DNA of 32,631 nt from IMG/VR virus record IMGVR_UViG_2778261165_000019, positions 1 through 32,631 of that record. One strand, 5' to 3'. The position numbers were made by a program. Shown piece after piece: positions 12,001-15,000 of the stretch (its first letter is position 1; each line of letters begins with the position of its first letter). The DNA is from a virus (lineage: Duplodnaviria; Heunggongvirae; Uroviricota; Caudoviricetes).

Positions 12001-15000
12001 CAGCGATTGCCACCAGGTGATGAGGCCTGATGTTCCTTCAATCAGTCTGAAGAACAGCCGCCCGATAATATCCCCGAGCGCCAGAATGCCTTTTATGGCT
12101 TTCGTCAGGGTCTGCTCGATACGCGGGAAGTTGTCCAGGATATGGCGGCGCAGAGTGTCCAGCGAACCCGCAAGCCCACCCGCAAGATTAGAGCCGATTT
12201 TGTCACGGGCCATGCCTGCCATCGCGCCAAACTCACGCAGGGAGGTCATAAATTTGTTGGAGCTTCTGGCCGCCTCGTCAGCATTGAAGCCGATAGCTTT
12301 CGCCATTGCGCTGTACTGCCCGGAGAAACCACCCACACCCCGGCGCATAGCCATCAGGGTATTTTCGTCAATGCCCAGCATCTGCGCATACTGGTTAGCC
12401 CGGTAATACGGCATGCTGCTGAGTTTCTGTCCAACGCCCGTAAAGATAGCAGCCATGTCACGCATGTTACCGCTGGCATCACGGGTCTGTACGCCCAGGC
12501 GATTCAGAAAGCCTTCTGCTCCGGGATTGTTACGAATAAACCGGGAGAGGCTTTCCAGAGAAGATCGCACAGCGTCCACACTGCCGCCAACCTGCGAAAC
12601 CGCATAGCCAATAGACTGAATTCCCTGGACCGTCGCGCCGGTGCGCTGTGACGCCCAGTAAAGATTATCCAGGCCGGAGGCGATCTTAGCCGTGAAGGCC
12701 ACCACGGACAGCGCAGCTCCTTCAACAGCCAGCCCCATTTTGATGACATTTGCAGTTGTACCGGCGAGGACAGAACCGAACTTTTTCGCTCCTGCATCAT
12801 CCACACTGAAGCCAAGCGAGACGAGGAAATCTTTAATAGTTTCAGCGTTCATTATCCTCTCTCCATTTCTCAATGCGCCGCTGGTTATCCGCTTTTACCG
12901 CCAGATGGTCATTCAAGAGAGCAATGTCGTACAAATCGACAGAGCCATCTTTAAGTGCTGTATAAGGAATTAACCCGGCGTCAACCGGATTGAGAAGGTA
13001 GGACAGCCCGTCCGGCAGGCTGTTAAACGTCAGCCCTGTTGCAGGCTCTGCGTCGTGCTGGTAAGGGGTGTAGGCAAAAAATTTCCCAGCGAATCGGCGA
13101 CCACCCGCGCCACCAGATGCAGCATGACCAGCAAGTCAATATCATCAAACATCAGTTCGCCCTGGGTAAATACCGGAACCCATCCGTCCATATGACGCCG
13201 CGATACCACCGCAAGACAGGGATGAATAATCGCACTGGTGTCATCTTCGGTCAGGGAAGACAGTTCCTCAGCGATACGCGGGAGCATGGTTTCAAACACC
13301 GGTTTTAACTGCTCGAATTTCACGGTGTCGATTTTGCCATCAGCAGGCAAACGGGAGCGAATGCTCCCGAAATCTGACATCATTCCTGCCAGCACCGGCA
13401 GAAGTTTGCGGGACACTTTCAGCTGATCAAAAACGCTGAGTTTTGCCGCGCGATATTTCACGCCTTTGATTTCGAATTCCATGTATTAAAACTCCCCGAG
13501 AACCTGGTCAATCTTGCCGCAGTCAAACACCCACGGCATCGTATTACCGGTTTTAGCGTTGGCATTATCCGGTTGTTTCTGGAACGCAACACTGCGTGCC
13601 GTGATGATGTCGCCGCTGACCTTGTTTCGGATCACAATAACGTTATTCCCCCATGTGGCAGAAGACTGGCTCTGTGCGTTATACGCCAGCGACAATTTTT
13701 TATTTGTCGGTGATGTCTTCAGAAGGTTAACGGTAATCGTCCCGCTTTTATCTGCATGGAGACTGTGCATCACTTCGCCATCAGAACCGATGGTCATGGT
13801 GTTTTTAGGACCGCCCATCGCAACCACAATCCCCTCTTCAGAACTTGCAGAACCGTACCCGAGGTCAATCGAACCGGTCGGCCCGGTCAGCGTCGCAGTA
13901 ACATCCATAAAAGAATAGGTAGACATTCACTTCCCCTTAGCGAACAACGTTAATCTGTACGTCAGCGTAATGAACCGCGCCTGCAAGTTTTATTGCAGCC
14001 TGAATCACCGGAGCCTTACGGGCTTCACGTTCTGATTGTGCCTGTTCATCCAGCGGCTGGGCGTATACGTAATAACCTTTGGGCAGTGTGTCACCTGATG
14101 ACAACTGACCAAGGTCGCCCCCGTTCCATACGCCCGGAGCAATCAGTCCATTCTGAACGGCCTGATCCAGTGATTTTTCAACATTTGATAACAGTCGGGT
14201 AATACCGGCTTCAGTCTGGGGAACTTTCGTGGTGCTGGTATAAAGCAGGTTATAGAGGTTGGTCTGCACATAATTCTGTAACCAGTCCAGGCCGTGGCGT
14301 TCATCAAAGAAATCGCCGTTAGCCATCACTCCCTGCTGGAGGATAGCTGTATCATTCTGGTAGTACACGAACACATTGCAGTTTTTTGCATCAAGTGCCG
14401 ATGCCTGGCTGACTGTCAGTGTTTCATACCCGACACCCGGCTCCTGCTTAAACTTGAGCGTAATCGCGGTATTACTGCCATTGAAATTAACCGTGAATGC
14501 CCGGCCAAATGCAGATAACGCAGCGTATTTATTACCCGATGAATATTGAATAAAACTGCGTGAATATCCGGCGGTTTTCAGTTTTGATGCCAAATCATCG
14601 CTGGATGCAGTCTGCAGGCATTTCTCATCGCTTGTCGTAATCGCCAGAATACGGCTTACAGAAGAGGATTCGATCGCCGCAGCCACTTTCAGCCAGTCTG
14701 CATCCGGAATATCTTCATCGTCTGCAATCCCCAGCCCATACCATGAAGTATAATCGAGCATGGCATTCACAGCCTGATCCAGCGTCTCAGGCGTGGCCTG
14801 TTCGCTGTCTCCCTTCGTTTTCACCCAACGACCAACAAAAACCTCCTGAGGTTTCGGTGATTGTGAGAAAAACACCTGCGCAGCCTTATATTCTGGTGAT
14901 TCCACGCCAAAATCTTTTCCAATATCTTCCGCGGCAGAATAACGGCGAATGCGCTCACTTACCGGAATGATTGTGGACGGGCCGAGAATGAGTAATGCAC

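What the first reader, a model, noticed from the sequence alone, without database searches (positions are those of the whole stretch)
12842..13482. Programmed -1 ribosomal frameshift in the tail assembly chaperone (G/GT-type)
The slippery run AAATTTTTTG (13075-13084) lies ~20 codons before the frame-0 stop, and the -1 frame is then open for 77 codons, ending at 12842-12844 and overlapping the tape measure start. This is the conserved chaperone arrangement upstream of tape measure genes. I translated the extension by hand and found no internal stops.
Basis: seen in the sequence. Interest (0 to 1): 0.5.

Follow-up and report, generated by a model that had tools for sequence, protein, structure and literature searches.

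The report
Frameshifted tail assembly chaperone gene
A prophage tail-assembly chaperone gene almost certainly makes a second, longer protein when some ribosomes slip back one base; this trick is well known in tailed phages, but genome databases mostly mislabel it for this phage group.

Summary
On the minus strand, a 150-aa tail assembly chaperone gene (13482..13030, Pfam Phage_TAC_15) lies between the tail tube and tape measure genes. It carries the tract G_GGA_AAT_TTT_TTG (13087..13075), which is three overlapping slippery heptamers, all in phase. The -1 frame then runs 77 codons with no stop, to TGA 12844..12842, and overlaps the tape measure ATG (12852).

The extension is a real coding domain (Pfam DUF6889). 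Its pN/pS is 0.34 in the -1 frame, against about 1.4 with many stops in the other two frames. It has no conserved start codon. Synonymous codon choice is frozen at the slip tract. About 30 relatives, down to roughly 30% protein identity, keep the same arrangement. In several metagenomic relatives the same two domains sit in one continuous ORF, and the alignment to the predicted fusion runs straight across the junction.

I found no conserved downstream RNA structure, as reported for P2 E/E+E'.

This is an ordinary lambda G/GT or P2 E/E+E'-type -1 frameshift. It is already annotated in the homologous Klebsiella phage Mulock. RefSeq and most phage records miss it: they call a 54-aa "DUF6889" ORF with a CTG start, or name it "NTP pyrophosphohydrolase". 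Which heptamer is used, and how often, remains untested.

The parts
13030..13482 (-). Short chaperone isoform (frame 0): 150 aa, ATG 13482, TGA 13032..13030.
   Evidence: Translation. Pfam Phage_TAC_15 at 1.1e-30, 107 bits against a cut-off of 22. phrog_1688 'tail assembly chaperone' at 1e-64.
13075..13087 (-). Slippery tract G_GGA_AAT_TTT_TTG. It holds three overlapping in-phase heptamers: GGGAAAT 13087..13081, AAATTTT 13084..13078 and TTTTTTG 13081..13075.
   Evidence: Sequence and phase check. The tract is invariant across enterobacterial relatives of 50-80% protein identity. Synonymous diversity is 0.00-0.09 at these codons against a mean of 0.37.
12842..13075 (-). -1-frame extension: 77 sense codons from GCC 13075..13073, plus stop TGA 12844..12842. 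Joined to residues 1-136 it gives a 213-aa long isoform.
   Evidence: Translation. pN/pS is 0.34 in the -1 frame with 0 stops; the same bases read in frame 0 or +1 give 94 and 133 stops and ratios of 1.46 and 1.39. In the overlap zone the -1 frame gives 0.52 and frame 0 gives 1.2.
12851..12967 (-). DUF6889 domain (residues 173-211 of the long isoform), proposed counterpart of the lambda T domain.
   Evidence: Pfam PF21829 at 8.9e-20, 70.6 bits against a cut-off of 23.9. phrog_4364 at 2e-23. In a natural fusion homologue the domain models as a helical unit after a disordered linker.
12842..13006 (-). The 54-aa stand-alone 'DUF6889 family protein' CDS as RefSeq calls it, starting at CTG 13006. 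I judge this an annotation artefact of the missed frameshift.
   Evidence: The CTG is not conserved and no start codon is conserved before the domain. Database calls of this ORF range from 46 to 78 aa.
10864..12852 (-). Tape measure protein gene (662 aa from ATG 12852; Shine-Dalgarno GGAGAGAGG at 12864..12856). It overlaps the end of the -1 ORF by 11 nt.
   Evidence: phrog_2276 'tail length tape measure protein' at 4.7e-283. Sequence.
13486..13926 (-). Tail tube gene immediately upstream (146 aa).
   Evidence: Pfam KPP10_Orf10 at 6.8e-60. RefSeq name is DUF3277.
13937..15082 (-). Tail sheath gene (381 aa).
   Evidence: Pfam DUF3383 at 4.9e-101. phrog_205 'tail sheath' at 8.8e-136.

Best explanation
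This is the tail assembly chaperone gene of a SEN34-like (Brunovirus-like) temperate myovirus prophage of E. coli.

Most ribosomes read frame 0 and make the 150-aa chaperone. A minority slip back one base on the tract G_GGA_AAT_TTT_TTG (13087..13075), with the P-site and A-site tRNAs re-pairing together. They then continue in the -1 frame for 77 codons and make a 213-aa long isoform. That isoform is the same chaperone domain, a flexible linker, and a small helical DUF6889 domain.

The slip most likely happens on A_AAU_UUU and/or U_UUU_UUG. The two sites give products that differ in one residue only, Phe or Leu at position 136. No downstream RNA stimulator appears to be needed.

By analogy with lambda gpG/gpGT, both isoforms would coat the tape measure protein through the shared N domain, and the C-terminal domain of the rare long isoform would recruit the tail tube protein. 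The fixed slip frequency would set the ratio of the two isoforms.

Shown here: the anatomy, that the -1 frame is coding, conservation of the slip tract, and that the two domains occur as one polypeptide in relatives.

Inferred: that the shift is ribosomal, which heptamer is used, how efficient it is, and what each domain binds.
For: - Exact translations give 150 aa in frame 0 and an 80-codon open -1 frame from AAA 13084.
- Gene order is sheath, tube, chaperone, tape measure, baseplate.
- The two parts hit Phage_TAC_15 and DUF6889.
- In 22 distinct relatives the tract GGGAAATTTTTT[G/T] is kept in phase, and the -1 ORF always runs about 62 codons past the frame-0 stop and ends at the tape measure start.
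- pN/pS is 0.34 in the -1 frame, against 1.4-1.5 with 94-133 stops in the other frames.
- Selection switches to the -1 frame right after the tract: 0.52 against 1.2 for the frame-0 tail.
- No start codon is conserved ahead of the domain.
- Synonymous sites are frozen at CTG GGA AAT TTT TTG.
- Distant phages keep the -1 ORF and an in-phase shifty site at the same spot, but with different sequence: G_GGA_AAT only, C_CCT_TTT, T_TTT_TTT only, G_GGT_TTT_TTC.
- Seven proteins of 191-210 aa carry both domains. The three checked on their contigs (P0038, P0044, P0127) are single continuous ORFs. BLASTP of the predicted fusion against P0044 runs unbroken across the junction: DSLGNFLAYTP aligned to DSLARFLAYEP, E = 8e-22.
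- The AF2 model of one such protein shows an N domain, a disordered linker and a helical C domain.
- Phage Mulock (58% identity) and Burkholderia phage Magia are annotated with a 'tape measure chaperone frameshift product'.
- P2 E/E+E' is reported to shift at TTTTTTG without a hairpin (PMC3091744).
- H_HH.U_UU.Y heptamers, which include A_AAU_UUU, are in the efficient class in E. coli (PMC4066793).
Against: - There is no protein-level evidence for this locus, and none that I found for any member of this family.
- No conserved stimulatory RNA structure follows the site: 0 covarying pairs and a fold z-score of -0.43. Efficiency may therefore be low.
- U_UUU_UUG and G_GGA_AAU are not in the most efficient class in E. 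coli.
- Two distant relatives, Edwardsiella ZHS (GAT_TTT) and Burkholderia E192a (TCT_TTT), lack a canonical heptamer. The mechanism may not be uniform across the family.
- A T6 run could also support RNA polymerase slippage, which would give the same product.
- The functions assigned to the two domains rest only on analogy with lambda.
Confidence: 0.9

Rival explanations
1. Transcriptional slippage. RNA polymerase adds one extra U on the T6 run (or A on the A3 run), producing a subpopulation of mRNAs in which the two frames are fused. The protein products would be the same as for ribosomal slippage.
For: A homopolymeric T6 run (T7 in L020, L022, L024 and Providencia PSTCR3) lies exactly at the junction. 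UUUUUUU is noted as a possible transcriptional slippage motif (PMC4066793).
Against: - What is conserved is the in-phase X_XXY_YYZ pattern, not the run length.
- Bordetella IFTN9 (GGGAAATAC), Acinetobacter (AAATTTTA) and Burkholderia (CCCTTTTA) have runs of 4 or fewer. From general knowledge, that is too short for efficient polymerase slippage.
- The homologous sites match known ribosomal slip motifs, and P2's TTTTTTG is described as a translational frameshift.
Confidence: 0.05
2. Two separate proteins. The -1 ORF is translated on its own as a small 'DUF6889 family protein' of about 54 aa, from a non-canonical start (CTG 13006) or by re-initiation after the chaperone stop. This is how RefSeq annotates it.
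For: RefSeq calls exactly this CDS in hundreds of E. coli genomes. Stand-alone calls dominate the protein databases.
Against: - The window has no ATG, GTG or TTG before the conserved LPDG motif, and no start is conserved among relatives; the CTG is replaced in Pantoea-type sequences.
- Called lengths vary from 46 to 78 aa.
- -1-frame purifying selection already acts upstream of the frame-0 stop, directly after the slip tract.
- In Limnobaculum and Providencia the -1 frame opens only at the T run.
- Natural single-ORF fusions align across the junction.
Confidence: 0.04
3. Chance open frame. The -1 ORF is non-coding spacer between the chaperone and tape measure genes that happens to lack stops.
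For: Several GenBank phage records leave the 177-nt stretch unannotated.
Against: - P is about 4e-4 for the open stretch.
- The stretch hits DUF6889 at 9e-20.
- pN/pS is 0.34 with third-position variation.
- It is conserved down to about 30% identity across several bacterial orders.
Confidence: 0.01

Closest known systems
Bacteriophage lambda gpG / gpGT
   Same: - A chaperone gene sits directly upstream of the tape measure gene.
- A -1 slip near its 3' end yields a rare long isoform with an extra C-terminal domain (NAR 2016 review PMC5009743).
- From my own knowledge, lambda's slip site is G_GGA_AAG, close to the first heptamer here (G_GGA_AAT).
- I know of no RNA stimulator in lambda, and none was found here.
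   Different: - There is no detectable sequence relationship: Pfam gives only Phage_TAC_15 and DUF6889.
- This phage is a contractile-tailed myovirus, so the partner would be a tube protein inside a sheath.
- Three overlapping heptamers here, against one in lambda.
- The functions of the two domains are untested here.
Bacteriophage P2 gpE / gpE+E'
   Same: - A myovirus chaperone pair between the tube (FII) and tape measure (T) genes.
- The slip is reported at TTTTTTG, the same heptamer as 13081..13075.
- No downstream hairpin (PMC3091744).
   Different: - Different protein family and sizes (P2: 91 and 142 aa; here 150 and 213 aa).
- The T run here is preceded by two further in-phase heptamers.
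Klebsiella phage Mulock CPT_Mulock_014/015 and Burkholderia phage Magia gp15/gp16
   Same: - True homologues: 58% identity for Mulock and 36% for Magia, against the predicted fusion protein.
- Mulock carries the same GGGAAATTTTTTG tract; Magia has C_CCT_TTT at the same position.
- Their GenBank records already annotate a joined 'tape measure chaperone frameshift product'.
   Different: These are annotations only. The Mulock genome paper does not mention the frameshift, and I found no experimental support. The closer relatives of the window (SEN34, YP3, vB_EcoM-606R2, RefSeq E. coli prophages) lack the annotation.
[quoted passage not shown]
   Same: - Adele's authors propose a conserved -1 frameshift at a poly-T motif (GTTTTT) in a chaperone upstream of the tape measure gene. 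The downstream 'hypothetical protein' is reinterpreted as the C-terminal domain of the long isoform (PMC12846349).
- KPP10, which names the tube family found in this window (KPP10_Orf10), is a Pakpunavirus from my own knowledge; homology of Adele's own genes to the window was not tested.
- The separate short and long genes found here in metagenomic relatives provide both isoforms without a frameshift. The title of Vladimirov et al. 2022, cited, says T4-like phages also use a mechanism other than frameshifting; I did not read that paper.
   Different: Lytic Pseudomonas phages with larger genomes. Sequence relatedness of the chaperones themselves was not tested here.

Membership tests
Tail assembly chaperone pair made by programmed -1 frameshift (lambda G/GT, P2 E/E+E' kind; Xu, Hendrix and Duda 2004) | The gene lies between the major tail/tube gene and the tape measure gene. 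| tested here: met
   Order on the minus strand is tube 13926..13486, chaperone 13482..13030, tape measure 12852..10864.
Tail assembly chaperone pair made by programmed -1 frameshift (lambda G/GT, P2 E/E+E' kind; Xu, Hendrix and Duda 2004) | A second ORF overlaps the 3' end in the -1 frame and has no start codon or ribosome binding site of its own. | tested here: met
   The -1 frame is open from 13135 to 12845. The window has no ATG, GTG or TTG before the conserved domain, and none is conserved in 22 relatives.
Tail assembly chaperone pair made by programmed -1 frameshift (lambda G/GT, P2 E/E+E' kind; Xu, Hendrix and Duda 2004) | An in-phase slippery heptamer X_XXY_YYZ lies within the overlap. 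| tested here: met
   There are three: G_GGA_AAT, A_AAT_TTT and T_TTT_TTG at 13087..13075.
Tail assembly chaperone pair made by programmed -1 frameshift (lambda G/GT, P2 E/E+E' kind; Xu, Hendrix and Duda 2004) | The slip site and the extension are conserved in related phages, and the extension is under protein-level selection. | tested here: met
Tail assembly chaperone pair made by programmed -1 frameshift (lambda G/GT, P2 E/E+E' kind; Xu, Hendrix and Duda 2004) | The fusion protein is actually produced at a low, fixed ratio to the short form. | not testable with these tools
   This needs mass spectrometry, western blots or a reporter assay. The only indirect support is that natural single-ORF fusions exist.
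Tail assembly chaperone pair made by programmed -1 frameshift (lambda G/GT, P2 E/E+E' kind; Xu, Hendrix and Duda 2004) | Both isoforms are required for tail assembly and are absent from mature virions. The N domain binds the tape measure protein and the C domain binds the tube protein. | not testable with these tools
   Inferred from lambda (PMC5009743).
Sequence families of lambda gpG and P2 gpE | Significant sequence match to those protein families. | tested here: not met
   A Pfam scan at E <= 0.01 returned only PF21822 and PF21829. There was no PDB sequence hit. The locus works like G/GT but is not a sequence-family member.
Pfam Phage_TAC_15 (PF21822) | Score above the curated gathering threshold. 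| tested here: met
   107.2 bits against a cut-off of 22, covering residues 6-138.
Pfam DUF6889 (PF21829) | Score above the curated gathering threshold. | tested here: met
   70.6 bits against a cut-off of 23.9, covering residues 173-211 of the fusion.

The most novel reading that the evidence does not exclude
The three consecutive in-phase heptamers form a multi-site shift tract that needs no stimulator. Ribosomes can slip at any of three positions, giving two long isoforms (Phe136 or Leu136). This redundancy would explain why lineages that have lost one or two heptamers still work: Bordetella keeps only G_GGA_AAT, and Providencia and Limnobaculum keep only T_TTT_TTT. Lineages with no canonical heptamer (Edwardsiella ZHS, Burkholderia E192a) would then use a bare U_UUU A-site slip or a different mechanism. 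A consequence is that DUF6889, now filed as a free-standing family of unknown function and sometimes named 'NTP pyrophosphohydrolase', is everywhere the C-terminal domain of a chaperone long isoform.
Probability: 0.3. Interest if true: 0.35.

Novelty: new member of a known kind. Interest (0 to 1): 0.22.

Why it matters
The biology is textbook. A conserved -1 frameshift that sets the ratio of short to long tail assembly chaperone has been known since lambda G/GT and P2 E/E+E'.

The practical value is in annotation.
- For this widespread prophage and phage group (315 of 5426 complete E. coli genomes, plus Salmonella, Klebsiella, Yersinia, Pantoea and Acinetobacter phages), RefSeq and most GenBank records split the long isoform. 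They give a chaperone plus a spurious 54-aa ORF with a CTG start, labelled 'DUF6889 family protein' or wrongly 'NTP pyrophosphohydrolase'.
- Recognising DUF6889 as the frameshift-encoded C-terminal domain of Phage_TAC_15 chaperones gives a Pfam DUF a likely function.
- It also supplies a clean comparative series for studying how slip sites evolve: different heptamers at one position, and lineages that replaced the frameshift with two genes.

Tried and rejected
- Downstream stimulatory RNA. RNAalifold on 17 relatives, from 10 nt before to 110 nt after the T run, gave 10 pairs, none covarying. The single-sequence fold has z = -0.43. Rejected.
- Upstream Shine-Dalgarno-like stimulator. GGGTGG at 13106..13101 lies 13-19 nt upstream but is replaced in the Pantoea and Izhakiella sequences. 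Not pursued.
- Independent start codon for the extension. None is conserved.
- PDB sequence search with the fusion protein. No hits at E <= 1.
- Structure prediction of the window's own fusion protein. I modelled the natural fusion P0127 instead.
- Literature search for DUF6889, PF21829, PF21822, or a frameshift in SEN34. Nothing found.
- Word-indexed homologue search with the extension. It found only short stand-alone calls. The natural fusions appeared only in the exhaustive HMMER search.
- P0030 (201 aa, 98% identical over the domain). It is a chimera whose N-terminus is unrelated to the chaperone, so I discarded it.
- Short and long chaperone genes in L043. They are not detectably similar by BLASTP. 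The long protein matches Phage_TAC_15 only below the cut-off, and the short gene's assignment is the precomputed Pfam hit listed.
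Full report
**Observation**

The feature is on the minus strand. ATG 13482 opens a 150-codon ORF that ends at TGA 13032..13030. Around the proposed site, frame 0 reads CTG GGA AAT TTT TTG CCT. With the preceding GGG, the tract G_GGA_AAT_TTT_TTG (13087..13075) holds three consecutive heptamers of the form X_XXY_YYZ, all in phase with frame 0.

Translating the -1 frame from AAA 13084 gives 80 sense codons with no stop. This stop lies 11 nt inside the next gene, whose ATG is 12852..12850 behind GGAGAGAGG.

The only inaccuracy is the distance to the frame-0 stop. The slip codons lie 14-16 sense codons before it, not about 20.

**Is it more than chance?**

Inside the window's 28 minus-strand genes, 7.7% of -1-frame codons are stops. 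No internal -1-frame open run reaches 80 codons, so a 98-codon open stretch has P of about 4e-4. In-phase heptamers occur at 26 of 7134 codon positions, and the three adjacent ones occur only here.

**What the genes are**

- The 150-aa protein is a Phage_TAC_15 tail assembly chaperone (107 bits against a cut-off of 22; phrog_1688 at 1e-64).
- The -1 extension is Pfam DUF6889 (8.9e-20) and phrog_4364.
- Upstream lie the tube gene (KPP10_Orf10/DUF3277) and the sheath gene (DUF3383).
- Downstream lies a 662-aa tape measure protein (phrog_2276 at 5e-283).
- The rest of the window is a complete myovirus morphogenesis module, with lysis and lambda-like regulatory genes.

**How it is annotated today**

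SEN34, YP3 and the vB_EcoM phages leave the 177 nt between the chaperone and the tape measure gene empty. RefSeq calls a 54-aa stand-alone 'DUF6889 family protein' there. Mapped onto the window, that ORF starts at CTG 13006. In some genomes it is a 61-aa 'NTP pyrophosphohydrolase' instead. Database proteins for this ORF range from 46 to 78 aa, which is what one expects when no real start exists.

Klebsiella phage Mulock is 58% identical to the predicted fusion protein and has the same GGGAAATTTTTTG tract. Mulock and Burkholderia phage Magia already carry a joined CDS described as 'tape measure chaperone frameshift product'. The Mulock and SEN34 papers do not discuss it. I found no paper that mentions DUF6889 or either Pfam accession.

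**Comparative evidence that the -1 frame is translated as an extension**

I examined 26 loci from one-genome-per-species contigs, at 38-86% identity, plus phage records. Twenty-two distinct intact sequences remained.

- All 22 keep the tract in phase. Nineteen have GGGAAATTTTTT[G/T], L013 has CGGAAATTTTTTG, and L020 keeps only TTTTTTT.
- In all 22 the -1 frame runs 60-65 codons past the frame-0 stop and ends at the tape measure start.
- The fused proteins align well throughout, with a conserved LPDG...PVDAG.I.Y..L.DG.VDL.DIA.MND.L..K.DN..RI..WR signature in the extension.
- Nei-Gojobori proportions: the chaperone body has pN/pS 0.40. The extension in the -1 frame has 0.34 with 0 stops. The same bases read in frame 0 or +1 contain 94 and 133 stops and give ratios of 1.46 and 1.39.
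- In the 14-codon overlap right after the tract, the -1 frame is the constrained one: 0.52, against 1.2 for the frame-0 tail. Translation in the -1 frame therefore begins at the tract, not after the frame-0 stop.
- No start codon is conserved ahead of the domain. The window itself has none.
- Among sequence pairs that share the same amino acid, codon diversity is 0.00-0.09 at CTG GGA AAT TTT TTG, against a mean of 0.37. This shows selection on the nucleotides themselves.
- Three copies look degraded: Apirhabdus L010, and Arsenophonus L027 and L028.

**Where the slip occurs**

In Limnobaculum (L020: GGT AGT TTT TTT CCC) and Providencia phage PSTCR3 (AGC AGT TTT TTT CCT), a -1-frame TAG lies at or 3 nt before the T run. 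Only T_TTT_TTT can serve there. Other relatives differ:

| Relative | In-phase shifty site |
|---|---|
| Bordetella IFTN9 | G_GGA_AAT only |
| Acinetobacter Ab105-1phi | GGGAAATTTT |
| Burkholderia Magia, BgManors32 | C_CCT_TTT |
| Ralstonia PY059YO380 | G_GGT_TTT_TTC |
| Edwardsiella ZHS | GAT_TTT (no canonical heptamer) |
| Burkholderia E192a | TCT_TTT (no canonical heptamer) |

All of these still carry the -1 DUF6889 ORF ending at the tape measure start. The position of the site is conserved and its sequence is not, which fits a shift at the tRNA re-pairing level.

In E. coli assays the efficient classes include H_HH.U_UU.Y. That class covers A_AAU_UUU, U_UUU_UUU and C_CCU_UUU (PMC4066793). 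P2 E/E+E' is reported to shift at TTTTTTG (PMC3091744).

For the window I cannot choose between A_AAU_UUU and U_UUU_UUG. The two products differ only at residue 136, Phe or Leu.

**Stimulators**

None was found. The consensus fold of 17 relatives has no covarying pair, and the window's own fold is no better than shuffled sequence, z = -0.43. P2 is likewise reported to lack a hairpin.

**Natural fusions**

An exhaustive HMMER search with the extension found 107 representatives. Most are short stand-alone calls, but seven are proteins of 191-210 aa with the domain at the C-terminus.

- All seven match Phage_TAC_15 in the N-terminal part and DUF6889 in the C-terminal part. The TAC_15 match is above the cut-off in five and below it in P0038 and P0044.
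- I looked up three of them on their contigs (P0044, P0038, P0127). Each is one continuous ORF that translates exactly, and each follows a separate short Phage_TAC_15 gene. The one junction I read, in P0044, has no slippery sequence.
- BLASTP of the window's predicted fusion against P0044 is a single alignment across the junction: residues 75-203, DSLGNFLAYTP aligned to DSLARFLAYEP, E = 8e-22.

These lineages provide the short and long isoforms from two genes instead of a frameshift. This shows that the two domains work as one polypeptide.

An AlphaFold2 model of P0127 (pLDDT 78) has a folded N domain, a disordered linker (residues 122-135) that begins where the slip site maps, and a helical C domain. 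Fold searches were uninformative.

**Mechanism and function**

The best-supported reading is tandem -1 ribosomal slippage on the tract. It would yield a major 150-aa isoform and a minor 213-aa isoform.

By analogy with lambda (PMC5009743), the shared N domain would coat the tape measure protein, and DUF6889 would recruit the tube protein. This functional part is inference.

The rivals are transcriptional slippage on the T run, independent initiation of a small protein, and a chance ORF. The first is disfavoured because relatives with runs of 4 or fewer keep in-phase heptamers. The other two are contradicted.

**Verdict**

This is a new member of a well-known kind, and a homologue is already annotated that way. 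Interest is therefore low. The useful by-products are:

- DUF6889 is identified as the frameshift-encoded domain of Phage_TAC_15 chaperones.
- A systematic RefSeq mis-annotation is documented.
- A comparative series shows slip-site turnover and replacement of the frameshift by two genes.

Noticed in passing
window 1398-4229 (inverted repeats 2014-2033 and 3860-3879): Likely invertible tail-fibre host-range segment of the Mu G / P1 C type. A serine DNA invertase (Resolvase + HTH_7, 1398..1988, minus strand) sits next to an alternative tail-fibre C-terminal ORF (1979..2380, plus strand, Gp53-like_C). Two opposed tail-fibre assembly genes follow (Caudo_TAP: 2384..2803 plus strand, 2775..3377 minus strand). 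A 20-nt inverted repeat, AAACGTTGGTTTGGGAGAAG (95% complementary), has one arm inside the tail fibre gene 3378..4229.
   Followed up: partly
window 12842-13006, and RefSeq or GenBank records of relatives: The -1 extension is systematically mis-annotated. It appears as a stand-alone 54-aa 'DUF6889 family protein' with a CTG start, or as a 58-63-aa 'NTP pyrophosphohydrolase'. That name has spread through E. coli, Salmonella, Pantoea, Kluyvera and Klebsiella phage records.
   Followed up: yes
L043 1989-3130; L044 577-1718; L045 108-1238; L046 231-1285: Metagenomic relatives encode a short Phage_TAC_15 gene followed by a separate long gene (191-209 aa) carrying TAC_15 plus DUF6889 in one ORF. These lineages use two genes instead of a frameshift. 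The one junction I read (L043) has no slippery sequence, and the gene after the long chaperone in L043 is not a tape measure gene.
   Followed up: partly
L040 (Edwardsiella phage vB_EpM_ZHS) and L041 (Burkholderia phage vB_E192a), about 50-55 nt before the chaperone stop: These distant homologues keep the -1 DUF6889 ORF but have no canonical X_XXY_YYZ heptamer (GGG GAT TTT ATG and GGT TCT TTT ATC). Only a U_UUU A-site slip would be possible. How their long isoform is made is unclear.
   Followed up: partly
window 26528-27388, minus strand: A module resembling P1 immI. Rfam finds C4 antisense RNA (27192..27275), isrK (27299..27375) and c4 a1b1 targets (27336..27388), directly upstream of an anti-repressor gene (26528..27139, phrog_2379).
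   Followed up: no
window 29560-29734, minus strand: Rfam hit to the sok antitoxin RNA (115.7 bits, full length). This suggests a hok/sok-type toxin-antitoxin locus inside the prophage's early region.
   Followed up: no
window 30397-31194, minus strand: A 265-aa ORF matches phrog_887 'queuine tRNA-ribosyltransferase' (5e-104). It may be a DpdA-like enzyme for 7-deazaguanine DNA modification.
   Followed up: no
window 7257-8907, minus strand: Three ORFs (8566..8907, 7685..8416, 7257..7685) hit only PHROGs of unknown function and no Pfam family. They lie between the baseplate hub (8911..9972) and a spike-like protein (6440..7192; PF18352 N-terminal domain plus GpV Apex motif).
   Followed up: no
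L010 (Apirhabdus), L027 and L028 (Arsenophonus): Degraded copies of the chaperone locus. L010 has a premature frame-0 stop after 47 codons. L027 has a -1-frame TAG soon after the T run. L028 has a truncated match. All are consistent with decaying prophages in host-associated bacteria.
   Followed up: no
L013 ('Chryseobacterium sp. 18061'), L025 ('Bacillus sp. AFS073361', a 395-bp contig), L042 (Elizabethkingia phage EKP1): Copies of this locus that look enterobacterial (56-86% identity, same GGAAATTTTTTG core) sit in records assigned to Bacteroidota or Firmicutes hosts. Contamination or a wrong host assignment seems likely.
   Followed up: no
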